This document shows, one piece after another, positions 1-40,444 of a stretch of 40,444 nt of DNA. Source of the DNA: Escherichia phage pO111; sequence record OR204652.1. The stretch is one strand, 5' to 3'. Both the position numbers and the translations under genes were made by a program. The notes below the pieces were generated by a model. That model did not search any database and had not been told where the DNA came from. It worked only from the letters and a program-made list of their open reading frames with translations. How positions within the stretch are numbered: position 1 is the stretch's first letter; every line of letters starts with the position of its first letter.

Positions 1-173
1 AGGGACAAGGAGAGACACTCAAGGTAACACCCAAAGGGACAACCCAAAGGTAACACTCAAAGACTCAACCCAACCCTTAGGGAACCCTCAAGGTCAACCG
101 AAGGTTGACTTTAGGTGATTGGCTGGGCTTTAGGTACCCCTATGGGGGAACTTTGGGCGCTTACACTGTGAGA
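1..173. repeat. Direct terminal repeat (genome right end in T7 orientation)
   Basis: 1..173 is identical to 40272..40444; the reverse complement resembles the T7 terminal repeat (TCTCACAGTGTA...). Confidence 0.9.
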
Positions 174-350: not shown

Positions 351-413
351 AAGTGGTGTGATGCAATCATACCGCTGAATCCCTCGGTGAGCCGTCAGTC
401 TGTCAGGAAGACC

Positions 414-563
414 CTAATCGCCACAAGTGAGTAAAGAGCAAACGGTAGACTCCAGTGAACTGAGGTCTCCAGTAAGCGATGCGTACCCAAGGGCAGCACA
501 AAGTACCACAAGAAATCGGTAGGTGACTCTATGCCGCAGTAGGTTCAACAATAAGCGGAACAT
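414..563 (-). CDS. 19.5: gp19.5-like small protein (49 aa)
   Basis: Manual translation MFRLLLNLLRHRVTYRFLVVLCAALGYASLTGDLSSLESTVCSLLTCGD; ATG preceded by AAGGGAGGAG; downstream of phiOR; below the ORF-track size cutoff. Confidence 0.6.
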   Translation of the reverse strand: MFRLLLNLLRHRVTYRFLVVLCAALGYASLTGDLSSLESTVCSLLTCGD

Positions 564-654
564 GAGTCTCCTCCCTTTATGTTGGTTGTATTAACAATAA
601 TAACAACCTACCTTATAGGTAACTTTAAGTCTTATAGTAATCTTTAGGTAGGCT

Positions 655-677
655 TCTCCCTATAGTGAGTCGAATTA
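655..677 (-). promoter_or_regulatory. T7-type phage RNAP promoter (phiOR position)
   Basis: Reverse complement TAATTCGACTCACTATAGGGAGA matches the T7 promoter consensus with one change in the -17..-13 block. Confidence 0.8.
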
Positions 678-728
678 GAATAATGGTCTGGAATCATATA
701 CTTAGACCTGTATCACTAATTTCAAATA

Positions 729-1172
729 TCAATCACTTAGGTAATCCTCAATGACCCTCTTGACCCACGCCACAGAGAGCTTATGGTATCTCGCTATGGA
801 CGTTGCGGTCCAGCCTTTATGGTATCTTCGAATCACTATGGCCTTACGTTCCTCGCTAGGGTCTCTCTTAGTTGCATCACGTTTACCTGTGGCCTTAGTT
901 GCACGACCTTTTGAGATGCAGTCCTCTATGTTCTCCTTCTGAGTCCCTTCCTTAAGGTGCTCAGGGTTAACACATGAAGGATTATCACATAGGTGCATCA
1001 CAACCATTCCGTCAGCTATCGGTCTGCCTAGATGACAACTCAGGGAATACCTGTGGGCCATCCAATGGACTCCGTTCACACGAATGCGACCATAGCCAGT
1101 CTTCGTCTTACATCCCTTAAAGTTCCAGCAACCAGTCTCCTTATCGACAACATACTTCTTCTTGCTTATCAT
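729..1172 (-). CDS. HNH endonuclease with C-terminal helix-turn-helix (putative free-standing homing endonuclease)
   Basis: 147-aa ORF; motif HLCDNPSCVNPEHL (HNH_3-like) plus C-terminal HTH; ATG with AAGGAGGT Shine-Dalgarno; lies between terminase gene 19 and phiOR. Confidence 0.8.
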   Translation of the reverse strand: MISKKKYVVDKETGCWNFKGCKTKTGYGRIRVNGVHWMAHRYSLSCHLGRPIADGMVVMHLCDNPSCVNPEHLKEGTQKENIEDCISKGRATKATGKRDATKRDPSEERKAIVIRRYHKGWTATSIARYHKLSVAWVKRVIEDYLSD

Positions 1173-1209
1173 ATTACCTCCTTAAAGCGGCCTTCCTTGG
1201 CCTCATAAA

Positions 1210-2970
1210 TCACCACTCAATGAAAGACGTACCGTATCCCTCATCGTCCTCATAGTACACATCAACTCCTCCTACAGACATCTCAATGATATGCGTAGCA
1301 GAAACCGTAGGACGCATCATGTGTTCCTCAAGGAAGTCAGCAAGTACTTCACCCTCGACCTTAACGGAATCCAATTGCATGGACTCACGGAGGTACTCAA
1401 CGCCTAACGCAAGGGAATCCAATCGGTCATCGTGTGCCAGAGCGCCTTTCTCACGGGTAATACGAGTCATCTGGTAGAACAGCGAATACTTAACGTCATG
1501 CTTACCGTCTACGTCACGAGCGGACTGGTAGTCGGCCCTAATGACCTCATCACGAATGACAAGGCGGTGAGTCTGCATGACTGGCTCAAGGGTATCACAA
1601 ATGCGCATCTCCTTCATACCACGAGCACGAATCTCTTCCATCGCACAGTTGTGGTGTTTAAGAAGGATAGGACTGAATACCTTACCAAACATACCGTCAC
1701 CGAAGTTACTCTCGTAGACAACCGTCTGGACCCCCCATTGCTTAGCTTTCTTAGCGAGCAACTCAAGGGTCTTATCGGAGTAACCATCACGGAAACCTCC
1801 AGCTTCCATAAGGTAGATGTAACCGTTCAGGGTGTATAGCACAGCGTAACCTGTTTCGTCCTTACCGCGACCACTAGGGTCAATGACCAGAATCTTCTGT
1901 TGGTACTGACCAGAGTTGTTAGAACAATCGTGGTACGTATGAAGGTCATCACCCTTAAGGCCCACGTTAGGAAGGTCCTCAATGATGTTCTGACGGTTCG
2001 GAAGCCACTGGTAATGCATTGGGGCCTTCTCTAAGTCTAAGGCCGCTACGATAGCGTCACGGAGCCTCAGAGGGTACTTCTCGGCATCACTCAGGTTCGG
2101 GTTAAGCATGAACTGTAACGTAAAGCCAGCCTTACCGTATTCCAACTCACGCTCACGGAGGTCGTCTCGGTCGAATCGAACAGGGTCTGTAGGAGTACCA
2201 GCCAGCGCCTCAGGATTCTCCTCGTACTCCGCACGAAGCATTGGAGCAAGACGTTGGGCATAGTAAAGACTCTCTTCACGCGTCCTTGGGTACAAGGCAG
2301 GCCATATGATAGTGGTATACCCACGGTTATCCTCAAGTTCCTTATACAGAGTCATCTCAGTCTGAGGAGTACCAAGGTAGATAACACGAGATGTGGGCAG
2401 CGGTTTAAGAAGCGCAGCGAACTCTTGAACTAGAGTCCATAGCTTCTCACGGGCACCCATGGTCGCACTGTTAGACGGAATCTCAACGTCATCCGCAATG
2501 ATAATATCAGCACGGCTACCAGTTAACTGACCAGTGATACCTACTGATTTCACACTAGGCGAGTGGTCAGGACTAGCAGGACCAACATCGAAACTAATCA
2601 CAGAGTCACGCTGTCCGGGTCTCGGCTTCAACTCACTGAGAAACGGTAGCAGGTCAATGATGTTCTTGATGAATATGGAGTTAGCGTCTGCACGTTCTTT
2701 AGAAGCTGATACGATAAGTATCTTCAACTGAGGGTCCCGCCATAAGGACCACACAACGAACGCACATGTGATGAACGACTTACCGATACCACGGAAAGCC
2801 TGTAAGATGAACTTCTTGTTGTCCCCATTCGCCAGTACCTTAGCCATGTCAATCTGACACTTAGTGGGCACCGGAAGGTTTAACGCCTTCCATAAGACGA
2901 ACAGGAACGCCACGAAGTCTCCTTTCAGTTGCGCCACTACGAGCGCATTACGATTGGATTGAGTAGACAC
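1210..2970 (-). CDS. 19: Terminase large subunit
   Basis: 586 aa, same length and near-identical sequence to recalled T7 gp19; GTG start after AAGGAGGT. Confidence 0.95.
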
Positions 2971-2979
2971 ATTACCTCC

Positions 2980-3429
2980 TTACTTGGTTTCCTGCTTACG
3001 TTGCAGTTCACGAATAGTATCCTGTAACGCACGAATCCACGCATCACCCTTCTGGGTCACTGCGATAATACGTTTAGCATCTCGGTCGTCAAGTTCGGCT
3101 CGACCATCAGGCTCGAATCCACACTTACCATCGGAGGTTCCGGTAGTCTTGATTCTGACGCGCAACCGCTTATTGTCGCTACGCAAATCAGAAATAATCC
3201 TATCAGTGCTCCCTTCCAGCGCGGCAAGGTCTGCTTGATACTTAGCCGATATCTCATTGATTGCTCTTTGAGTGCTCGCCGTAGCCTCAACTCTCTTAAC
3301 GTACTCATTCTGTACCTCCTGTTTCCACTTGGCGTCCATTGAGTCAGCCCCAAGTTGCCATCCCCATCCGAATAGCATCCCAGCGAGAACCCAAGGGACT
3401 GTTCTCTTAACGATTGCAAGTAATACCAT
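2980..3429 (-). CDS. 18.5: Rz-like i-spanin (gp18.5)
   Basis: ORF track 2980..3477 trimmed to the internal ATG (MVLLAIVKRTVPWVLAGMLFG...) that aligns with the T7 gp18.5 N-terminus. Confidence 0.85.
   Translation of the reverse strand: MVLLAIVKRTVPWVLAGMLFGWGWQLGADSMDAKWKQEVQNEYVKRVEATASTQRAINEISAKYQADLAALEGSTDRIISDLRSDNKRLRVRIKTTGTSDGKCGFEPDGRAELDDRDAKRIIAVTQKGDAWIRALQDTIRELQRKQETK
3057..3308 (-). CDS. 18.7: Rz1-like o-spanin lipoprotein (gp18.7), embedded in the +1 frame of Rz
   Basis: MSTLRELRLRRALKEQSMRY...ICVATISGCASES lipobox; 83 aa from the internal ATG of ORF 3057..3419. Confidence 0.85.
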   Translation of the reverse strand: MSTLRELRLRRALKEQSMRYRLSIKQTLPRWKGALIGLFLICVATISGCASESRLPEPPMVSVDSSLMVEPNLTTEMLNVLSQ

Positions 3430-3811
3430 AAGTTTCCTCCAACAATCTCGCGTGAGTTTCCCTAGCCCAAGAAACAACTTCCTCTAGATTAGTGGTAGGC
3501 GCATAAGTTTCCTTACGACCTCCCATGCGAATGTCACCATAGTAGACCATACAGCCTTTCCTCTTTGCGAATCTAGAGTATACACCCTTTGGTAGTTCCC
3601 TACTACTAATCGTGTTAGCCCTGTTAGCACCTCTAGGTACTGCCCTCAGGTTAGATAACGCATTATCCAGTGTGTCACCATTTATATGATCGATGACGTA
3701 CCCTTCTGGGATTGGACCATTGGCCTCTTCCCAAATCAGGCGGTGTACATTGTGTACCTTACCATTTATGGTTACTCGATAGTACCCTCCACTCAGGTAT
3801 TGACCTTCCAT
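3407..3811 (-). CDS. HNH endonuclease with AP2-like DNA-binding tail (putative homing endonuclease)
   Basis: 134-aa ORF; GYVIDHINGDTLDNALSNLRAV HNH motif; ATG with GGAGA Shine-Dalgarno; sits between gene 18 and Rz and overlaps the Rz start by 23 nt. Confidence 0.8.
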   Translation of the reverse strand: MEGQYLSGGYYRVTINGKVHNVHRLIWEEANGPIPEGYVIDHINGDTLDNALSNLRAVPRGANRANTISSRELPKGVYSRFAKRKGCMVYYGDIRMGGRKETYAPTTNLEEVVSWARETHARLLEETYGITCNR

Positions 3812-3873
3812 AATAATCTCTCCTATCTAAATGATATTCATAAGGGCCACTCATTAGAATGACCCTGAGTATA

Positions 3874-4146: not shown

Positions 4147-4350
4147 TTACTCCTTATTGGCTTTCTTCCAGTCAATCATCTTATCGACTACCTTGGCACC
4201 AATCTGAACCACTGTATAGGCGATAGCGGCAACGTAGAACCACTCATTAAGACTCAGCCCGAAGAACAGCCTCGCAGCACCATCAGCCACACCTGTACCC
4301 ACAATAGGTGCAGCCTTAACGATTTCATTGTTGAAGTCTAGGGATAGCAT
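4147..4350 (-). CDS. 17.5: Class II holin
   Basis: 67 aa, near-identical to recalled T7 gp17.5. Confidence 0.95.
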   Translation of the reverse strand: MLSLDFNNEIVKAAPIVGTGVADGAARLFFGLSLNEWFYVAAIAYTVVQIGAKVVDKMIDWKKANKE

Positions 4351-4361
4351 TATAGTCCCCC

Positions 4362-5981
4362 TTAATATTGGAAATCAATTTTAGCAAACCAGAAGAAGTT
4401 GTCTCGGACTGTTGAGCCAGAGGAGATGGCAAATACACTACCGCGCTGTACCCACCACGTAACAGTGTTGGCCTCTTGATACTGGGCGCGAGTAGACGTT
4501 GACACCTGCGTTAAGATCACTCCTCCACTTACCGGTGTATAAGGGAAACCAGTATCTGGAATTATGTTTATGTTTACCTGAGTGTTAGGCGGAACCTGCT
4601 CCGCATAACCCCACACTTCTGCCACGGAAGGGTTTGCAGGGTCAACTCTCCAACCACGTAGTGAGTTGCCGCCTGACATTTGATGCGTATTAGCCAATCT
4701 GTTCCACGTCCCATTAGGGTCTCCCCATGCTAATTCTCCGTACTCCGTCATGAATAGCGCTTCACCAATCTTACCGGGCCAGTGGAACGTTATCATAGGA
4801 CTTCGACCTAGATTGTTCGCTGTGTCCCAACCAGCCATTGGTCTAACCTCTATAGCACCATTATATTTTAAACCTAATGGGTTCTCACCATTCTTTCGGA
4901 AAACATTAAGGCCGTCTGATTCACCGGGGAATATCAAACTGGAGTTCCACGCAAACTCAGACTTTTTCAGGTCTTCTTTGGTTACCATAGTGTTACCGTT
5001 TCGGGTGGCTCGACCTTTAACTGCAAGATCCCTACCAACGTCTAGGTCGCCGGAGACAAAATTATAACCAGAAGGGTTACGCGCTTGGATTGCATCGCTA
5101 ACCATCATGGCACCTTTCATGGTGACGTTGTGACTAACTGGGTCCACAGAGTCGATTGCTCCAGCAAAATCGTTCATGTTACCAAGTTTATCTGCCTCAC
5201 TCTCAGCACGGTCTGCTTGCTGTTCTGCCAAAGTAGCAGATTTAGCGGAAGCAGTAGCTGAGTTCGCAGAGTTCACCTCGGATTGATGGGCAGCAGCCGC
5301 AGAGTTACCAGCAGCGGTAGCCTGTTGTGTAGCAGTGTTCTTGAACTGTTCGGCCTCATTTCGGAACCCCTCAGCCTCATTACGCCACTTATAGGTATTA
5401 GCAGCGTTAGTGCTGGACTCGTTCTTAAAGCCCTCCGCTTGGTTCTTGAAAGCCTCTGCTTCATTGCGGAACTGTAAGGACTCATTACGAGCTTGCCAAG
5501 AACTCTGGTTCATGGTCTTAAGTTGACCTAACGGAACAGCGTCACGGTCATCAACAGCGTTCGCTAGGTTCACGATACGACGACCACGGGCATCCAAGTG
5601 ACCATCATTGTTGACACCAATAGTATCCGCAGTCATGTCACGAGCCTCCTCCGCTACGTGCATCGTTTGAATCTGAGCAACGTTAAGGTCATACGCACGG
5701 AGGATTGAACCGTCCGTAAAGCCAACCAATCGGTCGGTCGTGGAGGTTACTCGACGTAACTCAACGGTCGTGTACCCATCAGCCGGACCCCAAGCCTTGG
5801 TCAGTGAGACGGTAGTACGTGTAGCAAAGCGATAGTCTGTATTAATCGTAAGGACCTTGCGGTCTACACCGATAAGAGTTACCACTACGAACTTACGGGC
5901 TAGATACTCAAACGGGATATTAAAATCACGATTGGAGCCATCTAACGGGTAAGTCAAAACGGTTTTAATTACGTTAGCCAT
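4362..5981 (-). CDS. 17: Tail fiber protein (conserved N-terminal tail-attachment domain, divergent C-terminal receptor-binding region)
   Basis: 539 aa; first ~265 aa match recalled T7 gp17, C-terminal ~270 aa do not. Confidence 0.9.
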   Translation of the reverse strand: MANVIKTVLTYPLDGSNRDFNIPFEYLARKFVVVTLIGVDRKVLTINTDYRFATRTTVSLTKAWGPADGYTTVELRRVTSTTDRLVGFTDGSILRAYDLNVAQIQTMHVAEEARDMTADTIGVNNDGHLDARGRRIVNLANAVDDRDAVPLGQLKTMNQSSWQARNESLQFRNEAEAFKNQAEGFKNESSTNAANTYKWRNEAEGFRNEAEQFKNTATQQATAAGNSAAAAHQSEVNSANSATASAKSATLAEQQADRAESEADKLGNMNDFAGAIDSVDPVSHNVTMKGAMMVSDAIQARNPSGYNFVSGDLDVGRDLAVKGRATRNGNTMVTKEDLKKSEFAWNSSLIFPGESDGLNVFRKNGENPLGLKYNGAIEVRPMAGWDTANNLGRSPMITFHWPGKIGEALFMTEYGELAWGDPNGTWNRLANTHQMSGGNSLRGWRVDPANPSVAEVWGYAEQVPPNTQVNINIIPDTGFPYTPVSGGVILTQVSTSTRAQYQEANTVTWWVQRGSVFAISSGSTVRDNFFWFAKIDFQY

Positions 5982-15780: not shown

Positions 15781-16371
15781 TTAGCGAGTCAGTAGACCAG
15801 AAGTGAACGCATCACCATCCAGCATGTTATAACCGCCGTAATCCACTTCGTACTCCATACAGAGGCGTCGAGCCTCATCTTCCTCTTCTTGGAGTACACC
15901 CTCTACTTCTGGTGCCCCAAAGAATCGGTTGTTGAACTGACGTGAAGCCTTAGTGACAATCCAGTAGCGGAAGCACTCAGGCATCTCATCGTAGTCTCTG
16001 AGACGAATAATGTTCACAGTAATGCCAGAGTCAAAGCGGTCTGATTGACTCGTTCGGTCATACACATAGCCACCTCGATTAACATAGACTGATTGACCGG
16101 AAGTAGCCATTAGGGACAAATAGTCATCGCTGTACACAATCAGGTTGGAGTAAACATCAGGTAATAGCGTTATGCCTTCCTCAATGTTGAACGTCCAGCC
16201 ACGAGACTGAATCTGTCTGTTAATCTTATTGAGAATGCGCCGAGCGTTCGCTACATCTGCGTTAGCATCACCTTCCAGCGTCGATACCGGAGGTTCACCG
16301 ATAGATGCCAGAATGTCATTCACAGCGGATAACTCAGCGGCAGTCTCAACGTTCATATCGTATGAGCGCAT
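15781..16371 (-). CDS. 11: Tail tubular protein A
   Basis: 196 aa, same length and position as T7 gp11. Confidence 0.93.
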
Positions 16372-18752: not shown

Positions 18753-20360
18753 AATGCCCGGCTGTAGACCTACGGAATCAGCGGCAGCAGCCATAGCCTC
18801 AGGTGAAGCTGTAGCCTGCGCAGCCATACCTTGACCAAGCGCAGCAGCACCACTATCCATACCCATTTGCATAGACTGTTGAGCCATCCTCTGTTGCTTC
18901 TGTTCTTCGGTAAGAAGGATACCAGAAGTGTCAATACCGATAGCGTTAGCAATGCGCAACTTAATCATTGCAAGGTTGATGTCAGGGTCGTCACGCATAG
19001 GAGCAAGAGCAGCCCACGCAGCGACACAACGCTCCAGCTTATCAAGGTCTTGTCCTCGACCGATTGCTTCCAGACCTGTACTAATGGTTGGCTCTACTGC
19101 TTCCTTAGGTAACTCAGGAATCTGTTGCGTGGCTTGTAGCTGCTTCAAGAGCACTCGTACCAGAGGCAATTGTAATTCTTGAGAAAGGATGGAGTAGACA
19201 CCACCTAAAGTATCTTCAAGTTCAGAAGCGACATACCGAATCTCTTCGGCTGTCACACGTTCACCTGTGCGCTGAACCGCAGAGTTCAACATAAAGGCAA
19301 ACGAAAGGCGAGCCTCAATAGCGTCACTGACAGCCTTGGCTACAGTAAAGTCTGCTTGCTTCTCCAGTTGGAGGAACGAGATGTCTTCTGGACGACCAGT
19401 AACGAAGTCACCAGTCTGAGCTTTGGTCAGTCGGCGTGGCTGGGTGATACCAGCAGGATTCACTAAGCCGATAACCTTAGAGCTAATCATGGACATCTTG
19501 ACGATAGCCTCTTGGAGATTCTCAAGGGACCGTAAGTCACCTAAGTATTCCTCAATGTACGAACGACCGTAGGATTCACCGTCAAGACGAACCATTCGAA
19601 TCGGGATGTATGGGCAAGCATCTTTAGGATATGCACCATCGGAGCCTTGTATCTCCATACCTTCAACCTCTTCGTAGCGGAGATATTCGTCTGACTCTTC
19701 GTCCAAGTAGATGTGAGTGTACACATCAATGGTCTCATCAGGTTTCTTCTCACCGCCTTGACCTTCTACAGCCTTACGGATGTCCTCAGGGAGAGCACCA
19801 AAAGCTATCTGGTCACGAGTCACCATTTGCAGAACGTTGCCGAATGCGTCTCGTTGGACCACATAAGAAGACAATCGGTACAGCTTCATGGGATTGTAGT
19901 TTGACCCTTCTGGTTCCGGTAGGTACAGTAGGACGTTACCCGCTACGACTAACTGCTTGAGAGCCTCAAAGAGAGTTACTCGGTAGCTGTTAGACTCAAT
20001 GTAGTTCATGATAATGCGCTCTACCATTGAGAGGCCCTCATCAACCTTAGCGAGTCCATCGGGGTCGCTCAGTAGTTGTTTTGCCTCGAACTCAGAGATG
20101 GTTAAGCGCATCCAAGTCTGCATGGGGAATAACGCCAGCATTAGTTTAGACGCTAGGTTATTCAGGCCACGGGCACCAACGGCTTGCCACGGAGTTGTGT
20201 AGTCTGTAGATGCGTTGTCGGAGTCCTTAGGGAATAAGGAGGGGATGGTATATTGAGCGCAATTCTGAGCGCGTGTCTCATAAGGAGCACGGTCGTTCTT
20301 TAAACGCTCATAGACGGACTTTGCGCCCTCCTCCGCAAGTCCTGTTCGTTTCTCAGCCAT
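18750..20360 (-). CDS. 8: Portal (head-to-tail connector) protein
   Basis: ORF track trimmed to MAEKRTGLAEEG (536 aa as in T7 gp8); its ATG overlaps the upstream HNH stop as TAATG. Confidence 0.93.
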   Translation of the reverse strand: MAEKRTGLAEEGAKSVYERLKNDRAPYETRAQNCAQYTIPSLFPKDSDNASTDYTTPWQAVGARGLNNLASKLMLALFPMQTWMRLTISEFEAKQLLSDPDGLAKVDEGLSMVERIIMNYIESNSYRVTLFEALKQLVVAGNVLLYLPEPEGSNYNPMKLYRLSSYVVQRDAFGNVLQMVTRDQIAFGALPEDIRKAVEGQGGEKKPDETIDVYTHIYLDEESDEYLRYEEVEGMEIQGSDGAYPKDACPYIPIRMVRLDGESYGRSYIEEYLGDLRSLENLQEAIVKMSMISSKVIGLVNPAGITQPRRLTKAQTGDFVTGRPEDISFLQLEKQADFTVAKAVSDAIEARLSFAFMLNSAVQRTGERVTAEEIRYVASELEDTLGGVYSILSQELQLPLVRVLLKQLQATQQIPELPKEAVEPTISTGLEAIGRGQDLDKLERCVAAWAALAPMRDDPDINLAMIKLRIANAIGIDTSGILLTEEQKQQRMAQQSMQMGMDSGAAALGQGMAAQATASPEAMAAAADSVGLQPGI

Positions 20361-20761
20361 TAAATATGTCTCCATGTCTTACCACATCGAGCGTCACTAA
20401 TGGTTCTCCTATGGATGCCATACATTTCTGACAACTCAGTGTTGGTTAAATTTGATGCACGAATCTCACGCACAATGGCCTCAGTGAGCTTGGCACCGTA
20501 ATGCTCTTCACCTCTGGATGCGTTCGCTCTACCTTTAGTTACACAGTCCATACGGTTATCACGCTGAGTGCCAGCTACAAGATGTTCAGGGTTGATACAC
20601 AGAGGATTGTCACAGGTATGCATTATGACCATACCAGTCGGTATCTCACCCTTTGATTTGATGTATGCTACCCTGTGAGCCAGCTGTGTCTTACCTTTGT
20701 AACCAACGAGACCGTACCCTCCTTTAGTCGTACAACCAGTATGAAGGATACAATCTGTCAT
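20360..20761 (-). CDS. HNH endonuclease with C-terminal helix-turn-helix (gene 7.7 position)
   Basis: 133 aa; HTCDNPLCINPEHL motif; same architecture as the ORFs at 729..1172 and 30008..30436. Confidence 0.8.
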   Translation of the reverse strand: MTDCILHTGCTTKGGYGLVGYKGKTQLAHRVAYIKSKGEIPTGMVIMHTCDNPLCINPEHLVAGTQRDNRMDCVTKGRANASRGEEHYGAKLTEAIVREIRASNLTNTELSEMYGIHRRTISDARCGKTWRHI

Positions 20762-23448: not shown

Positions 23449-23750
23449 TAGAACACCTCCCGTACAGTTGCTGGGGAGAATCGCATCAATTTACGTTCAG
23501 ACTCACTCAGGTCCTTGTAGTTATCCTTAACGAAGGAACGAAGTCCTTGCTTAATCAGGAACGTAGCGAGGCCATCGGGACCATGCGTCAACGCTTGGAC
23601 CAGTAACTCTTTCTTAAAGTCGTCAACTTGTTCACCAGCGGCTACTGCCTTGGCAACTCGCATAACGCAGTCTCGCAGGTTTTGTTCACCTTCACTAGTT
23701 ACCACAGCGGTAACGTCGAAGGACACTTTAAATTTCTTGGTCATAGCCAT
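23448..23750 (-). CDS. 5.5: gp5.5 (H-NS binding protein family)
   Basis: 100 aa, matches recalled T7 gp5.5. Confidence 0.9.
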   Translation of the reverse strand: MAMTKKFKVSFDVTAVVTSEGEQNLRDCVMRVAKAVAAGEQVDDFKKELLVQALTHGPDGLATFLIKQGLRSFVKDNYKDLSESERKLMRFSPATVREVF

Positions 23751-23769
23751 AATGATTTCTCCTATAGAA

Positions 23770-23925
23770 TTAGTGACATACGGCCCAATTAGGACCCATC
23801 TTACCTTCGGTATCCAGAAGACACCGGAAGTTCCAGTGGTCTCCTACCCAGCGCATCGCTTCCTGTGCAGTCTCAATGACCACCTGAGCAATCTCTTCGG
23901 TACGGCAACCTACTTGAATCTCATC
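23770..23925 (-). CDS. 5: DNA polymerase gene 5, exon 2 (C-terminal 51 codons)
   Basis: Manual translation DEIQVGCRTEEIAQVVIETAQEAMRWVGDHWNFRCLLDTEGKMGPNWAVCH*, which continues the T7 gp5 sequence right after ...AYMAWVH. Confidence 0.85.
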   Translation of the reverse strand, partial: DEIQVGCRTEEIAQVVIETAQEAMRWVGDHWNFRCLLDTEGKMGPNWAVCH

Positions 23926-24526
23926 CTTTCTGTATTCTCCTATTACTAGGAGTGTCGGACTATATCATCAGCCTTTGAGTTGACTGTCTGGCGCTTCGGG
24001 TAACGAGGGAATCTCACCCTCGGCCCTACTCCTTTCGGATAGTCTCTACGCCTTCCACTCTCTAATCCACTTACAAGCGGCAGAGAACGTTACACCAAAC
24101 TTCTCACCTAAGTGTGCTCCTGTACATCCAGTCTCCAACCAGTATTCCTTCGCGGACTCTTTACGGTCAGCGTAGCGTTCCCTGTTTGTCTTGACTGTAT
24201 GCTCAGAACCTTCTAGTAACTGGAGGTGCTCTACGTTACAGCACGCCCTGTTCCTACACTTGTGGTCTACTTCATACCCTTCTGGTATATCTCCGTAGTG
24301 TTCCTTCCAGACTGTCCTGTGATACATCTCTAGGACACCGTTCGTCTTCTTTCGGAAATAACCATCAGTATTAAGTTTGTGTGACGTAGGGATGATACAA
24401 CCACTCGCTGTGGTCGCAAGGATTAACTTCTTGCCTCTCATATATCCTCCCTATGGCTTGGCTCGGTATTGCCCTAGAAGGGTTTCACCGAGTTCACCAG
24501 ATTTAATGTGCACAATGAGATAGTTT
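23926..24526 (-). mobile_element. Group I self-splicing intron in DNA polymerase gene 5, carrying an HNH homing-endonuclease ORF
   Basis: 601 nt between the gp5 exons; exon 1 ends in U; GUGCAC near the intron 5' end can pair with exon end GUGCAU (U-G wobble); R-like AGAGACUA and S-like GAUAUAGUCC elements; CUCCUA-GUAA-UAGGAG hairpin; intron ends in G. Confidence 0.8.
24046..24441 (-). CDS. Intron-encoded HNH homing endonuclease
   Basis: 131 aa ORF inside the intron; YEVDHKCRNRACCNVEHL HNH-type motif; ATG with GGGAGGA Shine-Dalgarno; stop codon overlaps the R-like element. Confidence 0.82.
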   Translation of the reverse strand: MRGKKLILATTASGCIIPTSHKLNTDGYFRKKTNGVLEMYHRTVWKEHYGDIPEGYEVDHKCRNRACCNVEHLQLLEGSEHTVKTNRERYADRKESAKEYWLETGCTGAHLGEKFGVTFSAACKWIREWKA

Positions 24527-26485
24527 ATGCACCCATGCCATGTACGCAAAGTCCCCATCCCAGCCATGCTTCAAGCCTTTCTCTACGAGCATCTCTTCGG
24601 TCTTGATAATCCACAGTTTGCAGATGAGAGCACCAGCAGATTGTAATAGGGTATTCAAGGCAGCGTGAGGACTACGGACGTGTACCTTACGACCATCCAG
24701 ACCTTTAATCCAGCGGCGTTTCCACTTGACTCGCTGTTCGCCAGCTACCCACTGAGAGGACTCAACAAGTGTCTGTTGGATAGACTCACGGAGTGCTGCA
24801 ATCGCTGGGGTGTTCTCAAGGAATTTCTTCTTGAGTTCCTTACCGCGCTCTTTACCAGCACCAACAATCTGTCCAATCTTCTCATCACCAGCACCATAGA
24901 GGAACCCATAGATAAACGTCTTAGCGTTATCACGGGTAGGCAATTCGGCAGCTATCTGGTTCTTAGTGTGGATGTCGCCATTGAGAATCTCGTGAGCGTA
25001 CTCACCGTTGTCAAAGCGAGCCATGAAGTGGGCCAAGCATCGCAACTCCAGACCGGAGGCGTCTATACCAGCCTGAACCCAAGGCTTACCTGTAAGTCCA
25101 TCTAGGTGATGTTCAGCGCCAAAAGCAGCGCGGCACTGCTCACCATAAGGAGAACGGACACCGGGTATCTGTGCGAGGTTAGGGAAAGCGTGAGTAGCGC
25201 GCCCAGTAACAGCGCCGTTGGGATTAACAGAACCATGAATTTTACCATCCTCAGCAACGTAACGAAGCCACGCCTTGTCTCCCTCAGCTGACTGTCCGAT
25301 TCTCTTCTGAATCATCAAGTATTCTTTAATGAGGTCGATTGCAGCTTGCTTCTCAGGGTCATCTACACGTACTCCTTCGAGTACCTCATCGTCCACCACA
25401 GGCGCACCCTTATCGGTGTACTTCGTGGGGACCCACCCAGCCTCTTGAAGTTTCTTCTGAATGTGGTCACGGGACGAAGGGTTAAACACTACGTGCTCTA
25501 CCGGAGTATATGGGGCACCAGCAACGTACTCGCGGGTATCCAGTTCGCAAGGCTCACGGCCTTCTCGTTGTGCCTTGTTCTTAGGCTTCTTAAAGATACC
25601 ACCAACTTTAGGTGTCTTAATGCGAGGGTATTTAGGCAGTGGTTTACCTGTCCGAGGATGGCAGAACATCTCAGTGCCACCTTTAGGCTGATACCACGAG
25701 CCGAACGTTTCGGTCAGCTTACGCAGCAACTCTGAGCGGCGAGCAGCCAACTCTACGTACAACTCCTCGATTGCTTTCGTGTCAAACGGGAATCCATTAC
25801 GCTCTTGCTTAGCGAGTAGCCATGCAGCGCGATGTTCAACATCAACGGCCTCAAGGGATTCTGACCAGAACGTAGTGTAGCCTACGTCCGTAAAGTCAAT
25901 CTCAGGAGGGAAGTAATGTTTATCAGAGAGTAGCTTCTCAAGGAGAGCCTTAGTGACCACAACGTCCTGAACGTTATAGGCCATCATCTCTTCGTTGAAG
26001 TTCCACCACTCCATTCCGTCAACGTATTCTTCACCTTGCTCTTCAAGCATACGCTTAAAGTCATCCTTGTATTCACCCTTCATCTCACCTAAGCGATAGC
26101 CCCACGCCTCCAAAGCGTGAGACCCAAAGCGTTTACCGGGCAACTTACCGGAACGCAGAAGACCCATATCGGTGTCTTTAAGGTTAGAGTGAATCAATCG
26201 TGACAGCACAAGGGTGTCGATACAGTTCTCACGGGGAAGGTGGAACTCACGGTTCAATTGTAGCTTTGCCAGTTTGGTCAATGCGGGAACGTCATACTTG
26301 TGACCGTTGTGGAACACGATAAGACCGCCTCGTGCAACCTCGGCTTCCAGCGCATCCAGATACGCACCGAAGTCACTCGGACGGTAGCTTACGTACTCAG
26401 CGGTGGAGTAGTCATAGATAACCCCGCAGTGGAACTTAGTGACGCTCTCTAAGAGGGCGTTAGCTTCGATGTCAGAAACGATCAT
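24527..26485 (-). CDS. 5: DNA polymerase gene 5, exon 1 (653 codons)
   Basis: Near-identical to recalled T7 gp5 residues 1-653; the unspliced ORF runs 7 extra codons (KLSHCAH*) into the intron. Confidence 0.9.
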
Positions 26486-29587: not shown

Positions 29588-30036
29588 TATTTCTTCTCCT
29601 TCTTAATAATCATTTTGTCCCAAGGAATCTCCTTACTAGGTTCTTTAAGCCATTCCGCAGGTATCAACTTGTCTGCGAACTTAATGCTATGTTTTTCTGC
29701 CCACTCACCGTAGCTGGTGGGAGACCCTTTGTATAACTTGGTGCGACTTGAAGAGAACACGATGCGTATATCGAGGGATGGGAACTGTTCGCGAATAAGT
29801 AAATGTTTCTTACGGTCTTCCGCTTCAAATAGTCCCTTGAACTCTACTATAATACCGTTTGGTAAAAGCGCATCTGGTGTGTATTTATGATTACTCGCTG
29901 GGATTACGTAGGGGATTGAGAAAGACTCATACTTAGCCTTGACCCCCATGCTCTCCAAGCGAGCCATATTCTTCTCTTCAAGTCCACTTCGGTAGTTTCC
30001 TACACGTTTAATTCCTCTTGCTGCGTAACCTGCCAT
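29587..30036 (-). CDS. 3: Endonuclease I (Holliday junction resolvase)
   Basis: 149 aa, matches recalled T7 gp3. Confidence 0.93.
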   Translation of the reverse strand: MAGYAARGIKRVGNYRSGLEEKNMARLESMGVKAKYESFSIPYVIPASNHKYTPDALLPNGIIVEFKGLFEAEDRKKHLLIREQFPSLDIRIVFSSSRTKLYKGSPTSYGEWAEKHSIKFADKLIPAEWLKEPSKEIPWDKMIIKKEKK

Positions 30037-30436
30037 AAGTCCTCCTGTTTCGTATCATACTGATAGTCGCAGGAGAAACCCCAAAGTCATCAGCCAATTC
30101 GTAGCCTTTCTTTGTGGAAGACATTATGGTTAGTACATCATCATCACTAAGTTTATGTCCTTTACGTCCCCTCCCCTTGGAGGCCATATCTGCTAGGTTC
30201 TCAGCTTGAGTCCCTAGAGATAAGTGTTCAGGGTTGCAGCACTTACGGTTATCACAAGAATGCATTACAACATCGTTAGGTGCTGCCCCAGCCATGACCC
30301 TGTGAATGTAAACGGGGCGACCAGTTTCTGGGTTGCGAATCTGACCGTACCCATTTGTTTTCACAGAGCCTTGCCACTCCCAGCATCCAGAAGACGTAAC
30401 CTCAATTCGCTTGAGGATTTTCTCCTGCAAGCCCAT
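30008..30436 (-). CDS. HNH endonuclease with C-terminal helix-turn-helix (gene 2.8 position)
   Basis: 142 aa; HSCDNRKCCNPEHL motif; overlaps the gene 3 start by 29 nt. Confidence 0.8.
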   Translation of the reverse strand: MGLQEKILKRIEVTSSGCWEWQGSVKTNGYGQIRNPETGRPVYIHRVMAGAAPNDVVMHSCDNRKCCNPEHLSLGTQAENLADMASKGRGRKGHKLSDDDVLTIMSSTKKGYELADDFGVSPATISMIRNRRTYGRLRSKRN

Positions 30437-32461: not shown

Positions 32462-32492
32462 AACGCAGAAAGGCCCACCCTAAGGTGAGCCA
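32462..32492 (-). terminator. Early-region intrinsic terminator TE (for host RNAP)
   Basis: mRNA GGCUCACC-UUAG-GGUGGGCC hairpin followed by UUUCUGCGUUU; matches the recalled T7 TE. Confidence 0.85.
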
Positions 32493-32497
32493 GTTAG

Positions 32498-32995
32498 TTA
32501 TTGTAGCTCAGCTAGTAGTTTGTCGCGGGTCGCTACAGCCTCGTTAAGTGACTTGTGATATGAGACATATCGTCTGCCGAACTTCCTAACGGAGACGGTG
32601 TATAGGTTTCTATCATGTCTCTTATTGATGTGCTTAAGCCCCAGCTTGTTGGTGCAGAATGCTCCTTTGTTCTGATTGTTCTCAGCGCTTGTGACCACTC
32701 TGAGATTCTCTATGAGGTTATTCTGCTTATTTCTATCGATATGGTCTATCTGTAAACCGTCTGGTATAGGGCCGTTAGCAAGTTCCCACACTACTCTGTG
32801 AACCATTAAGTAGTGCGCCTTTCCTTCCACCCTGACACATAGAGTCCAATACCCAGTCTTCTTTAGATAGCCAACGGGCTTCCCATTAATACGCGAGAGG
32901 CCACTAGGAGACTCCCTGTCAATCTTAAATCTTTTCGCTACGATTTCCCTCAACTCCACGGAAGCAGGTGAAGGAAGGATGTCTGAGACTTCCAC
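32498..32995 (-). CDS. HNH endonuclease (free-standing, putative homing endonuclease) at the gene 1.4 position
   Basis: 165 aa; LQIDHIDRNKQNNLIENLRVVTSAENNQNKG HNH motif; GTG start with GGAGG Shine-Dalgarno; overlaps the last 71 nt of the ligase gene. Confidence 0.8.
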   Translation of the reverse strand: MEVSDILPSPASVELREIVAKRFKIDRESPSGLSRINGKPVGYLKKTGYWTLCVRVEGKAHYLMVHRVVWELANGPIPDGLQIDHIDRNKQNNLIENLRVVTSAENNQNKGAFCTNKLGLKHINKRHDRNLYTVSVRKFGRRYVSYHKSLNEAVATRDKLLAELQ

Positions 32996-33941
32996 TTTCT
33001 GTTTCCTCCATATAATTTACTTGGCAAGACCATCCGTTATAGTAGTCCTCCCCGTGCTCCTTAACGTTGGCGGTAAATTCGTCCATTAAGGCGCGAGAGA
33101 TATTGTTAGCGTCTACAATACGCCCTGTCTCAAGAAGCACCGTGAACCCTATTACCTTACCTTCGTTGGCTAGACCTTTCGTACCCCAGTTTACACCTTG
33201 GATGATACCGTCTGCTTCGTTCTCTGGCTTGAGTTTCCACCAGCCGGACTTCTTACCGCGCTTGTAGATGCACATCGGGTCTTTCACAATGAGACCCTCA
33301 TGCCCTTCTTCACGCTTCTTCTCGTACAGTTGCTGTAGTTCTACCATGTCGTAAATCTCGTAAGACTCAGCCGCTTGCCATTCGATTTCAGGGAAGTATT
33401 CCTGTAGCAGAGGCAGCATGTTCTTAACGTGTTCCTGCATGAGCAGCGTCATGACATCACAGTCTTCTCCAGACTCTACGATGTGCAGCGGTAGGATAGC
33501 ATACAGTTTGACACTCAGACGTTTGGTGTCCAACGCGAACTCAACCTTGGACCCCTTGAGTGGTGGCACACCGCCAACGTCGAACTCAAAGTTCTTCTTG
33601 TTGAGCCACTTGGTGCGCAGAAGACCGGAGCCAGTGTTGAAGTCTACACCTTTGACCATCAGTTCACCATCGAGCATGAAGCCGTCAGGGTAGAAGCATC
33701 GGTCATCACGAAGGAGGCGTTGCCAGCGAGAGTCAAAACCGTTCAAATGCTCAAGTGCCGGAATCGTTTTAGAAACACGAGAGAGCCAGCAACTGTTAGC
33801 AGTGTTGTCTACGCAGATGTTCCCACGTACACCATCGTACTTACAATCGACAATTAGGTATCCCGCATTGTCTAAGGCCTTCTTCACAGCGGATTCAACA
33901 AAAGACACAGCTTTAAATGGGATGGTCTTAATGTTCATCAT
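32925..33941 (-). CDS. 1.3: ATP-dependent DNA ligase
   Basis: 338 aa with the adenylation motif KYDGVRG; N-terminus MMNIKT as in T7 gp1.3; shorter than the 359 aa recalled for T7. Confidence 0.93.
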   Translation of the reverse strand: MMNIKTIPFKAVSFVESAVKKALDNAGYLIVDCKYDGVRGNICVDNTANSCWLSRVSKTIPALEHLNGFDSRWQRLLRDDRCFYPDGFMLDGELMVKGVDFNTGSGLLRTKWLNKKNFEFDVGGVPPLKGSKVEFALDTKRLSVKLYAILPLHIVESGEDCDVMTLLMQEHVKNMLPLLQEYFPEIEWQAAESYEIYDMVELQQLYEKKREEGHEGLIVKDPMCIYKRGKKSGWWKLKPENEADGIIQGVNWGTKGLANEGKVIGFTVLLETGRIVDANNISRALMDEFTANVKEHGEDYYNGWSCQVNYMEETESGSLRHPSFTCFRGVEGNRSEKI

Positions 33942-40271: not shown

Positions 40272-40444
40272 AGGGACAAGGAGAGACACTCAAGGTAACA
40301 CCCAAAGGGACAACCCAAAGGTAACACTCAAAGACTCAACCCAACCCTTAGGGAACCCTCAAGGTCAACCGAAGGTTGACTTTAGGTGATTGGCTGGGCT
40401 TTAGGTACCCCTATGGGGGAACTTTGGGCGCTTACACTGTGAGA
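40272..40444. repeat. Direct terminal repeat (genome left end in T7 orientation)
   Basis: Identical to 1..173. Confidence 0.9.

What the first reader, a model, noticed from the sequence alone, without database searches (positions are those of the whole stretch)
23926..24526. Group I intron with an HNH homing endonuclease splitting DNA polymerase gene 5
The gp5 reading frame matches recalled T7 DNA polymerase through ...AYMAWVH, then reads KLSHCAH-stop. The missing 51 codons (DEIQVGCRTEEIAQVVIETAQEAMRWVGDHWNFRCLLDTEGKMGPNWAVCH) resume exactly 601 nt downstream, and joining them gives a 704-aa product, the T7 gp5 length. The intervening RNA has group I hallmarks: exon 1 ends in U; GUGCAC at intron nt 14-19 can pair with exon end GUGCAU to give the U-G pair of P1; an R-like AGAGACUA and an S-like GAUAUAGUCC can form P7; a CUCCUA-GUAA-UAGGAG tetraloop hairpin precedes a terminal G. 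A 131-aa HNH ORF with its own Shine-Dalgarno sits inside, and its stop codon overlaps the R-like element. T7 itself has an uninterrupted gene 5 followed by free-standing gene 5.3, which is absent here. Group I introns in DNA polymerase genes of some T7-like phages have been reported, so this is probably a member of that class rather than new biology, but it is the most unusual structure in the window.
Basis: partly seen in the sequence, partly recalled or inferred. Interest (0 to 1): 0.8.

Follow-up and report, generated by a model that had tools for sequence, protein, structure and literature searches.

The report
Known self-splicing intron in T7-like polymerase
The DNA polymerase gene of this T7-like phage is interrupted by a 601-base self-splicing group I intron that carries its own HNH homing endonuclease gene; it is real, but it is the I-TslI intron already described in phages PhiI and W31 and annotated in phage 13a.

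Summary
Gene 5 runs 26485..24527, is interrupted by exactly 601 nt (24526..23926) and resumes at 23925..23770. The joined product is 704 aa and aligns 1-704 without a gap to T7 DNA polymerase. T7 DNA is contiguous across the two junctions.

The insert is a subgroup IA2 group I intron:
- P1 has a U.G pair at the 5' splice site, and there is a 7-bp P10.
- P3-P9 are present, including P7.1-GUA-P7.2, and the intron ends in G.
- Across 19 relatives, 96% of proposed pairs hold (about 40% in slid controls), and 28 of 65 pairs show compensatory changes.
- Rfam Intron_gpI matches at E=4.5e-8, but at 38.4 bits it is below the gathering score of 50. An ORF-less relative scores 58.9.

The 131-aa ORF in P6a has an HNH_3 domain. 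It is 85% identical to I-TslI of phage PhiI and sits in the same 90% cluster. The literature lists the PhiI and W31 introns as 601 nt with a 131-aa ORF. The intron is 99.2% identical to the one in phage 13a, whose gp5 is annotated as a two-piece join.

Identical flanking exon tracts within roughly 6%-diverged DNA (117 nt upstream, 44 nt downstream) point to acquisition by homing. Verdict: real, correctly interpreted, already known. Interest is low.

The parts
24527..26485 (-). Gene 5 (DNA polymerase) exon 1, 653 codons, ending ...AWVH (His653), last base U
   Evidence: ORF list; 93.5% identical to T7 gene 5 up to T7 base 16311; spliced product matches T7 polymerase 1-704
23926..24526 (-). Group I (IA2) intron, 601 nt
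   Evidence: Absent from T7 at an exactly contiguous site; Rfam RF00028 38.4 bits, E=4.5e-8; 99.2% identical to the phage 13a intron; covariation
24508..24532 (-). P1: exon GUGCAU (24532..24527) pairs with the internal guide GUGCAC (24513..24508), with a U.G pair at the splice site. It is extended by AA (24526..24525) pairing with UU (24515..24514).
   Evidence: Sequence; 100% of cells paired; G-C changes to A-U in ECBP2, PAS59 and Vp_R1; recovered by the MFE fold
24514..24520 (-). P10 guide UCUCAUU, pairing with the first 7 nt of exon 2, GAUGAGA (23925..23919)
   Evidence: Sequence; at the second guide position the pair is C-G in 5 sequences (including the window) and U-A in 7, tracking GAG/GAA in exon 2
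24495..24501 (-). P3 5' strand UCUGGUG, pairing with CGCCAGA (23993..23987)
   Evidence: 7 bp, 100% paired, 5 of 7 pairs with compensatory changes
24463..24491 (-). P4 (UCGGUG/UACCGA) enclosing P5 (CCCU/AGGG)
   Evidence: P4 100% paired and P5 92% paired, with compensatory changes; recovered by the MFE fold and the Rfam alignment
24453..24462 (-). P6 5' strand GCC and P6a 5' strand CCAU. Their partners GUGG (24058..24055) and GGC (24052..24050) lie in the last codons of the ORF.
   Evidence: P6 100% paired with C-G to U-A changes; P6a 85.5% paired. In the L006, L014 and L015 copies the aligned P6a columns do not pair; a replacement ACUG/CAGU pairing was seen by eye only.
24446..24451 (-). Shine-Dalgarno GGGAGG for the intron ORF, 4 nt before the AUG
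   Evidence: Sequence; a purine-rich GGAG/GGAGG is conserved in all relatives
24046..24441 (-). I-TslI-type HNH homing endonuclease gene, 131 aa plus stop, located in the loop of P6a
   Evidence: Pfam HNH_3 E=6.7e-17; 85% identical to I-TslI of PhiI; same 90% cluster; dN/dS 0.06-0.26 against relatives
24040..24044 (-). P7 5' strand GACUA, pairing with UAGUC (23962..23958)
   Evidence: 98.9% paired; two pairs change on both sides in the Arash relative
23998..24039 (-). P7.1 (UCC-GAAA-GGA), GUA linker, P7.2 (GGG..CGAGGG-loop-CCCUCG..CCC): the IA2 signature
   Evidence: GUA is invariant in 19 sequences; P7.2 changes A-U to U-A in 8 sequences; recovered by the MFE fold
23969..23986 (-). P8 hairpin CAGUC-AACUCAAA-GGCUG
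   Evidence: 96.8% paired, 4 of 5 pairs with compensatory changes
23937..23952 (-). P9 hairpin CUCCUA-GUAA-UAGGAG
   Evidence: 100% paired, 4 of 6 pairs with compensatory changes
23926..23926 (-). Terminal G (omega G) at the 3' splice site
   Evidence: Sequence; G in all 19 aligned relatives
23770..23925 (-). Gene 5 exon 2: 51 codons starting at the catalytic Asp654 (DEIQV...AVCH) plus stop
   Evidence: continues T7 gene 5 from base 16312
23882..24643 (-). Block nearly identical to phage 13a (5 mismatches, all inside the intron) within roughly 6%-diverged gene 5: intron plus co-converted exon flanks
   Evidence: Mismatch map against 13a

Best explanation
This is a copy of the mobile, self-splicing group I intron (subgroup IA2) that carries the HNH homing endonuclease I-TslI. 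It is inserted in phase 0 between His653 and the catalytic Asp654 (motif C, HDE) of the T7-type DNA polymerase gene.

Proposed mechanism:
- The intron is transcribed as part of the gene 5 mRNA.
- The RNA folds into P1-P9. An exogenous guanosine attacks after the U of the P1 U.G pair.
- P10 aligns exon 2, and the freed exon-1 3'-OH attacks after the terminal G. This joins ...GUGCAU to GAUGAG... and restores the 704-aa polymerase.
- The ORF in the P6a loop is translated from its own Shine-Dalgarno sequence. In mixed infections its product cuts or nicks intron-less gene 5 alleles near the insertion site. Repair from the intron-bearing genome copies the intron and short exon flanks into the recipient (homing).

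Shown here: the exact junctions, the conserved and covarying RNA structure, the HNH domain under purifying selection, close kinship to I-TslI, a patchy distribution among close relatives, and a co-conversion-like tract.

Inferred from published work on PhiI and W31, not tested on this copy: splicing and endonuclease activity.
For: - Junctions: T7 DNA is contiguous across the 601-nt insert. The spliced product is 704 aa and aligns gap-free to T7 polymerase structures.
- RNA, database match: Rfam Intron_gpI matches full length, E=4.5e-8. An ORF-less relative passes the gathering score at 58.9 bits.
- RNA, structure: a hand-drawn P1-P10 structure, counted on an unbiased MAFFT alignment of 19 ORF-deleted relatives, gives 96.3% standard pairs against 37-45% for slid partners. 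28 of 65 pairs show changes on both sides, and 0 of 500 shuffles reach any measure.
- RNA, folding: the MFE fold independently recovers P1, P4, P5, P7.1, P7.2 and P9.
- IA2 signature: P7.1-GUA-P7.2 is present and invariant, as described for the PhiI and W31 introns in PMC3428280.
- ORF: HNH_3 domain, 85% identity to I-TslI AAV53690, same 90% cluster, and intact in all 20 relatives with dN/dS 0.06-0.26.
- Literature: the PhiI and W31 DNA polymerase introns are 601 nt with a 131-aa I-TslI ORF (PMC1995217). They are group IA2 with the ORF in P6a, at E. coli Pol I position 881 (PMC3428280). I-TslI is cited as an intron homing nicking endonuclease (PMC8845596).
- Annotation: 13a gp5 and K1F DNA polymerase are annotated as two-piece joins.
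- Mobility: the intron is 97-99% identical across Teseptimavirus, Berlinvirus, Kayfunavirus, Yersinia and Klebsiella phages, while this genome is only about 92% identical to its nearest relatives. Close relatives EG1, IME390, PHB20, JacobBurckhardt and PVN09 are absent from the complete list of 39 intron-bearing records. Exon tracts of 117 and 44 nt are identical to 13a.
Against: - The Rfam score of this copy (38.4 bits) is below the curated gathering score (50), and nothing is reported at the gathering threshold. The roughly 400-nt ORF insertion is the likely reason, but this was not tested directly on an ORF-deleted version of this copy.
- P6a is the weakest helix (85.5% paired).
- No RNA or protein data exist for this phage.
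- The two primary papers (Bonocora and Shub 2004, 2009) could not be opened. Their content is taken from citing papers and from memory.
- The DNA of PhiI and W31 (AY769989, AY769990) is not in the searchable collections, so nucleotide identity to them was not measured.
Confidence: 0.95

Rival explanations
1. Genes in pieces without splicing: a free-standing HNH gene has split gene 5 into two separately translated polypeptides (653 aa plus about 51 aa) that assemble into an active polymerase.
For: Many database records annotate exactly this, with two 'DNA polymerase' CDS flanking an HNH gene. Fractured genes split by homing endonucleases are known in phages (PMC2677866, listed).
Against: - Exon 2 begins with Asp654 and has no start codon or Shine-Dalgarno at its 5' end. 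The first in-frame start is a GUG 14 codons in.
- The non-coding 85 nt and 120 nt flanking the ORF are more conserved than the ORF itself and show 28 compensatory base-pair changes in a group I fold. A simple gene insertion does not explain this.
- There is a significant Rfam group I match.
- Citing papers describe the near-identical PhiI and W31 inserts as group I introns.
Confidence: 0.02
2. A decayed intron remnant that no longer splices, leaving a polymerase pseudogene or a sequencing or assembly artefact.
For: At least one related record (Citrobacter phage NS1, L023) shows insertions, a broken P7 and no exon 2 after the intron. Damaged or misassembled copies therefore do exist.
Against: - In this copy every core helix pairs perfectly and the ORF is intact.
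- It differs at only 5 of 601 positions from the phage 13a copy.
- Gene 5 is essential for T7-type phages (established knowledge), and the window is a complete genome with terminal repeats from an isolated phage.
Confidence: 0.02
3. A protein-level or translational solution instead of RNA splicing, namely an intein or ribosomal bypassing.
For: None beyond the fact that an essential gene is interrupted.
Against: - The insert is not in frame with exon 1: a stop follows after 7 codons, which rules out an intein.
- 601 nt is far longer than any known translational bypass (T4 gene 60 bypasses 50 nt; established knowledge).
- The ORF has its own start and Shine-Dalgarno sequence.
Confidence: 0.005

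Closest known systems
I-TslI group I introns in the DNA polymerase genes of coliphages PhiI and W31 (Bonocora and Shub, J Bacteriol 2004; Curr Biol 2009)
   Same: - Same host gene and same insertion site (His|Asp of motif C, E. coli Pol I position 881 according to PMC3428280).
- Same intron length (601 nt) and ORF length (131 aa) (PMC1995217).
- Same subgroup (IA2, P7.1-GUA-P7.2) and same ORF position (P6a).
- The endonuclease is 85% identical to I-TslI of PhiI and in the same 90% cluster.
   Different: The ORF differs from PhiI I-TslI at 19 of 131 residues. The host genome is a T7-type (Teseptimavirus-like) phage. Nucleotide identity to AY769989 and AY769990 could not be measured.
Intron of Escherichia phage 13a gene 5 (EU734174, gp5 annotated as a two-piece join with an internal endonuclease)
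   Same: 99.2% nucleotide identity over all 601 nt, identical junctions, and identical flanking exon tracts of 117 and 44 nt.
   Different: Five substitutions. The rest of gene 5 is about 6% diverged and the genomes are about 92% identical.
Free-standing gene 5.3 HNH endonucleases of T3 and phiYeO3-12-type phages (F-TslI)
   Same: Homologous HNH_3 domain, 45-50% identical over the N-terminal ~100 residues. Encoded next to the same polymerase gene. From memory of the 2009 paper, it cuts the same site in intron-less gene 5.
   Different: - Located downstream of an uninterrupted gene 5, not inside an intron.
- Shorter, about 100-110 aa (101 aa in L011; 110 aa for phiYeO3-12 gp5.3). The L011 protein shows no match to the C-terminal helix-turn-helix-like tail, which is itself only weakly detected in the window protein.
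- No such gene exists in this window.
HNH-encoding group I introns in DNA polymerase genes of Bacillus phages SPO1, SP82 and Bastille (I-HmuI, I-HmuII, I-BasI) and cyanophage Pf-WMP3 (I-PfoP3I)
   Same: Group I introns in family A polymerase genes carrying HNH nicking endonucleases. Pf-WMP3 is also IA2 with the ORF in P6a (PMC3428280).
   Different: Different insertion site (position 674 against 881), a different ORF location in SPO1 (P8), and no detectable nucleotide similarity in the searches run here.

Membership tests
Group I intron | P1 formed by the end of exon 1 and an internal guide sequence, with a U.G wobble pair at the 5' splice site | tested here: met
   GUGCAU/GUGCAC with U(24527).G(24513). 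18 of 18 relatives keep the U.G pair, and the outer pair covaries G-C to A-U.
Group I intron | Conserved catalytic core P3-P9, including the P3/P7 pseudoknot | tested here: met
   All helices were located. 96.3% of cells are paired against about 40% in slid controls. P3 has 5 of 7, P7 2 of 5, P8 4 of 5 and P9 4 of 6 pairs with compensatory changes.
Group I intron | Terminal G at the 3' splice site, and P10 pairing of the guide with exon 2 | tested here: met
   G at 23926 is invariant in 19 sequences. P10 is UCUCAUU/GAUGAGA, with C-G/U-A covariation.
Group I intron | Precise excision restores an uninterrupted host reading frame | tested here: met
   In silico splicing gives 704 aa, gap-free against T7 polymerase. 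The intron-less T7 and L011 alleles are contiguous at the same nucleotide.
Group I intron | Score against the Rfam RF00028 covariance model | tested here: inconclusive
   Full-length match at 38.4 bits, E=4.5e-8, but below the gathering score of 50, and no hit at the gathering threshold. The ORF-less relative in phage Arash scores 58.9.
Group I intron | Guanosine-dependent self-splicing | not testable with these tools
   From memory of Bonocora and Shub 2004, the PhiI and W31 introns splice in vivo and self-splice in vitro. The citing papers opened here only describe them as group I introns. Not measured for this copy.
Subgroup IA2 | Extra helices P7.1 and P7.2 between P7 and the 3' strand of P3, linked by G-U-A | tested here: met
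   UCCGAAAGGA-GUA-GGGCC...CCC at 24039..23998. GUA is invariant. The criterion is as stated in PMC3428280.
I-TslI intron of PhiI and W31 | Same insertion site in gene 5, 601-nt intron, 131-aa ORF in P6a | tested here: met
   601 nt and 131 aa, the same figures as in the PMC1995217 table. The ORF lies between the P6a strands. The site is His653|Asp654, taken here (from memory) to be the T7 equivalent of the position-881 motif C site that PMC3428280 gives for the PhiI and W31 introns.
I-TslI intron of PhiI and W31 | Endonuclease orthologous to I-TslI (AAV53690) | tested here: met
   85% identity over 131 of 131 residues, E=8e-91. Same 90%-identity cluster.
HNH homing endonuclease | HNH (beta-beta-alpha-metal) nuclease motif | tested here: met
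   Pfam HNH_3, 61.3 bits against a cut-off of 24.8, residues 40-82. The motif DH-x8-N-x2-H is visible in EVDHKCRNRACCNVEH.
HNH homing endonuclease | Site-specific cleavage of the intron-less allele and promotion of homing | not testable with these tools
   Only indirect evidence is available: the co-conversion-like tract, the patchy distribution and purifying selection. Activity is cited for I-TslI (PMC8845596).

The most novel reading that the evidence does not exclude
The I-TslI-type intron is not confined to T7-like phages. Recognisably homologous copies (ribozyme plus HNH ORF, 66-71% nucleotide identity) sit at the same His|Asp site of motif C in family A polymerases of unrelated lineages:
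- Gordonclarkvirinae: ECBP2, SU7, PAS59.
- Vibrio phage Vp_R1 (Grimontviridae).
- Klebsiella RCIP0053, Edwardsiella WAG25P1 and Aeromonas PT2.

There the polymerase is annotated as two genes. An ORF-less relative of the ribozyme occupies a different site (motif B) in Salmonella phage Arash. If this is unpublished, the family would be a cross-family mobile element that tracks one catalytic motif. It would also offer a natural series of ORF-less, ORF-containing and free-standing forms for testing the 'intron and endonuclease unite later' model.
Probability: 0.35. Interest if true: 0.3.

Novelty: already known. Interest (0 to 1): 0.15.

Why it matters
For this window it matters mainly for annotation. 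The polymerase gene must be annotated as a spliced join (26485..24527 plus 23925..23770, minus strand). The 131-aa 'hypothetical protein' (WMM35739.1 in the source record) is an I-TslI-type homing endonuclease.

Biologically it is one more example of a well-understood selfish element. It targets the codons of a catalytic motif in an essential gene and spreads between co-infecting T7-like phages, dragging short exon tracts with it. It adds no new mechanism.

Tried and rejected
- An Rfam search of the whole window at gathering thresholds found nothing. The intron appears only with the E-value threshold.
- A PDB sequence search with the HNH protein gave no meaningful hit.
- The primary papers could not be opened: PMC529087, PubMed 19200727 and PMC2856452. 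Citing papers were used instead.
- A search for a paper on phage pO111 found nothing relevant.
- A search for literature on introns in phiEco32-like polymerases found nothing relevant.
- The Rfam alignment folded the start of the ORF into a local P6a hairpin. I rejected this in favour of P6/P6a pairing across the ORF. P6 pairs in all 19 sequences, with C-G to U-A changes. P6a is weaker (85.5% paired) and its aligned columns do not pair in L006, L014 and L015, where a replacement ACUG/CAGU pairing was seen by eye only. This placement matches the published 'ORF in P6a' description.
- I considered whether CCAUAGGGAGG upstream of the ORF is a T7-type promoter remnant. I rejected this by eye: only the ATAGGGAG part matches, the upstream specificity region does not, and the distant relatives keep only a GGAG-type Shine-Dalgarno sequence.
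- Intein and ribosomal bypassing were rejected from the reading frames.

Full report
**What the window is.** The 40,444-base window is a complete T7-like phage genome stored in reverse orientation. It aligns with T7 end to end on the opposite strand at about 80-97% identity and has direct terminal repeats at 1-173 and 40272-40444. The intron ORF's protein is an exact match to WMM35739.1, 'hypothetical protein [Escherichia phage pO111]', recorded on a 40,444-bp contig. The nearest genomes in the phage collection (SYGE1, JeanTinguely, 13a) are only about 92% identical. All features below are on the minus strand.

**Checking the observation.**
- The long ORF 26485..24503 ends ...[15 protein letters not shown]-stop.
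- Translation of 23925 downward gives DEIQVGCRTEEIAQVVIETAQEAMRWVGDHWNFRCLLDTEGKMGPNWAVCH, then a stop at 23772..23770.
- Exon 1 is 1959 nt, or 653 codons. Exon 1 plus exon 2 gives 704 aa.
- That product aligns residue 1-704 to 1-704 of T7 DNA polymerase (PDB 6n7w, 2ajq, 1t7p) with no gap and only about six substitutions.
- At the DNA level, window 26506..24527 matches T7 up to base 16311 and window 23925..23769 continues from base 16312. The insert is therefore exactly 601 nt, 24526..23926.
- An intron-less metagenomic allele (L011) is contiguous at the same nucleotide.
- The junction lies between His653 and Asp654. This is the HDE of polymerase motif C. Asp654 is one of the two catalytic aspartates of T7 polymerase (established knowledge), so the unspliced product would be inactive.

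**The RNA structure.** Rfam's group I model matches 24536..23936 full length (model 1-253) at 38.4 bits, E=4.5e-8. This is below the curated gathering score of 50, which is why the default search reported nothing. I located the helices by hand and verified them base by base:

| Element | Sequence or feature |
|---|---|
| P1 | GUGCAU/GUGCAC, with the splice-site U.G pair, extended by AA/UU |
| P10 | UCUCAUU/GAUGAGA, 7 bp with exon 2 |
| P2 | absent |
| P3 | UCUGGUG/CGCCAGA |
| P4 | UCGGUG/UACCGA |
| P5 | CCCU/AGGG |
| P6 | GCC/GGC |
| P6a | CCAU/GUGG, pairing across the ORF |
| P7 | GACUA/UAGUC |
| P7.1-GUA-P7.2 | present |
| P8 | CAGUC/GGCUG |
| P9 | CUCCUA-GUAA-UAGGAG |
| 3' end | 11-nt tail ending in G |

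An MFE fold of the ORF-deleted RNA independently recovers P1, P4, P5, P7.1, P7.2 and P9 (z = -2.2).

**Comparative test.** BLAST found the whole element in 39 phage records at megablast sensitivity and in 57 at 80% coverage or more with sensitive settings. I fetched 19 distinct copies ranging from 99% to about 66% identity:
- T7-like phages of four genera.
- Aeromonas PT2, Klebsiella RCIP0053 and Edwardsiella WAG25P1.
- The Gordonclarkvirinae phages ECBP2 and PAS59.
- Vibrio Vp_R1.
- An ORF-less relative in Salmonella phage Arash.

I removed the ORF and aligned them with MAFFT, without reference to structure. On that alignment my structure gives:
- 96.3% standard pairs, against 37-45% when partners are slid by 1-3 columns.
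- 28 of 65 pairs with changes on both sides, spread over 103 cells.
- 0 of 500 shuffles reaching any of the five measures.

P1, P3, P4, P6 and P9 are paired in 100% of cells. The splice-site U.G pair is kept in 18 of 18 sequences. The P10 guide covaries with the synonymous GAG/GAA codon of exon 2. The terminal G and the GUA linker are invariant. The weakest helix is P6a, at 85.5% paired. The ORF-less Arash relative passes the Rfam gathering score (58.9 bits). That fits the idea that the roughly 400-nt ORF insertion depresses the score of the ORF-bearing copies, which range from 29.9 to 39 bits.

**The ORF.** The ORF at 24441..24046 encodes 131 aa and is preceded by GGGAGG four nt upstream.
- It has a Pfam HNH_3 domain (E=6.7e-17) and weak helix-turn-helix signals at its C-terminus.
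- Its last 14 nt supply the 3' strands of P6a and P6, and its UAG stop ends one nt before P7. Ribosomes finishing the ORF would therefore transiently disrupt the core. This last point is inference, by analogy with I-TevI.
- It is intact in all 20 relatives and evolves under purifying selection, with dN/dS 0.06-0.26.
- The ORF diverges much faster than the ribozyme: 79% against 97% nucleotide identity to Sekstaphage-1.

**Identity with known elements.**
- The protein falls in the same 90% cluster as I-TslI of phage PhiI (AAV53690) and is 85% identical to it over its full length.
- A published table lists the DNA polymerase introns of PhiI and W31 as 601 nt with a 131-aa I-TslI ORF (PMC1995217). 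These are the same numbers as here.
- PMC3428280 describes those introns as group IA2 with the ORF in P6a, at E. coli Pol I position 881.
- I-TslI is cited as an intron-encoded homing nicking endonuclease (PMC8845596).
- The phage 13a record, whose intron is 99.2% identical, annotates gp5 as a two-piece join with an internal endonuclease, and K1F does the same. The K1F intron is also mentioned in PMC4925675.
- From memory, not verified here: Bonocora and Shub showed in vivo and in vitro splicing in 2004. In 2009 they showed I-TslI-dependent homing, with the free-standing T3 gp5.3 cutting the same site.

**Evidence of mobility in this genome.**
- Against 13a, gene 5 is about 6% diverged. The block 24643..23882 is the exception: it has only five mismatches, all inside the intron, and perfectly identical exon tracts of 117 nt upstream and 44 nt downstream. 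This is the pattern expected from homing with co-conversion.
- The intron is 97-99% identical in phages of different genera and hosts.
- Several of this genome's closest relatives (EG1, IME390, PHB20, JacobBurckhardt, PVN09) are missing from the complete list of 39 intron-bearing records.
- T7's empty site reads GTACAT|GATGAAATC. All 18 aligned intron-bearing alleles read (G/A)TGCAT, as required for P1.

**Rival explanations.**
- A non-spliced 'gene in pieces' does not explain the covarying non-coding flanks, and exon 2 lacks a start codon.
- A decayed remnant is contradicted by perfect helices and an intact ORF.
- Inteins and translational bypassing are excluded by the reading frames.

**Verdict.** It is a near-identical copy of an element that has been described, characterised and annotated. 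Novelty is 'already known' and interest is low. The practical consequence is annotation: the source record apparently calls the endonuclease a hypothetical protein.

The only mildly new thread is the wider distribution of the family. It occurs at the same HDE site in non-T7-like phages, where it is annotated as split polymerases, and an ORF-less relative sits at a motif B site in phage Arash. I did not find either reported in the searchable literature.

Noticed in passing
window 729..1172, 3407..3811, 20360..20761, 30008..30436, 32498..32995 (all minus strand): There are five further free-standing HNH_3 endonuclease genes of 133-165 aa (Pfam E from 4.5e-7 to 1.7e-21). Four lie wholly or mostly in stretches with no BLAST match to T7 (587..1203, 3399..3829, 20383..20761, 32462..33072); the fifth, 30008..30436, lies inside a stretch that aligns with T7 at about 80%. 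The 20360..20761 gene occupies the T7 gene 7.7 slot. The genome therefore carries at least six HNH genes in total.
   Followed up: partly
window 23748..23772; T7 locus L026 2984..3340: The slot that holds gene 5.3 in T7 is empty here: the exon-2 stop is at 23772..23770 and the gp5.5 AUG is at 23750. T7 gp5.3 itself is a PD-(D/E)XK (PDDEXK_5) protein, not an HNH. Three different arrangements therefore exist at this locus: the intron with an HNH gene, a free-standing HNH gene (T3-type, L011), and a free-standing PD-(D/E)XK gene (T7).
   Followed up: partly
window 23882..24643: This co-conversion-like block is identical to phage 13a except for 5 intron substitutions. It is embedded in gene 5 sequence that is about 6% diverged, which suggests recent acquisition of the intron from a 13a-like donor.
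   Followed up: yes
L013 (ECBP2), L017 (PAS59), L016 (Vp_R1), L014 (RCIP0053), L015 (WAG25P1), L012 (PT2), L006 (IMG/VR): Homologous intron-plus-HNH elements (598-647 nt) sit at the same His|Asp codons of motif C in family A polymerases of phages outside the T7 group. In L013, L015 and L017 the polymerase is annotated as separate CDS flanking an HNH or hypothetical gene; in L014 all flanking CDS are 'hypothetical protein' and in L016 no exon-2 CDS is annotated. L006, L014 and L015 have an extra P2 hairpin (ACGUUGAGUAAUUGACGU) that the window copy lacks.
   Followed up: partly
L018 (Salmonella phage Arash, OQ632216) about 1060..1330: An ORF-less relative of the same ribozyme (Rfam 58.9 bits) interrupts a different family A polymerase in motif B. 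The inferred junction is ...SVTF|GLLYG, in phase 2. The record annotates the two halves as 'DNA polymerase nu' and 'DNA polymerase theta'. P7 shows two compensatory pair changes relative to the window copy. The splice sites were inferred by eye only.
   Followed up: partly
L023 (Citrobacter phage NS1, MN715150.2) 395..1003: This copy has a 7-nt insertion in exon 1 and a 10-nt insertion in P6. Its P7 3' strand is mutated (UACUC), P7.1 is broken, and unrelated sequence follows the 3' splice site. It is either a decayed copy or an assembly problem near the start of the record.
   Followed up: no
window 1..173 and 40272..40444: Direct terminal repeats, which also match the T7 terminal repeat at about 86%. 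The window is a whole linear T7-like genome in reverse orientation, identified as Escherichia phage pO111 by an exact protein match and the contig length.
   Followed up: partly
window 4350..5151: This stretch has no nucleotide match to T7. By position between the flanking T7 matches it corresponds to the distal part of T7 gene 17 (tail fibre), which would be consistent with a different host range. It was not examined.
   Followed up: no
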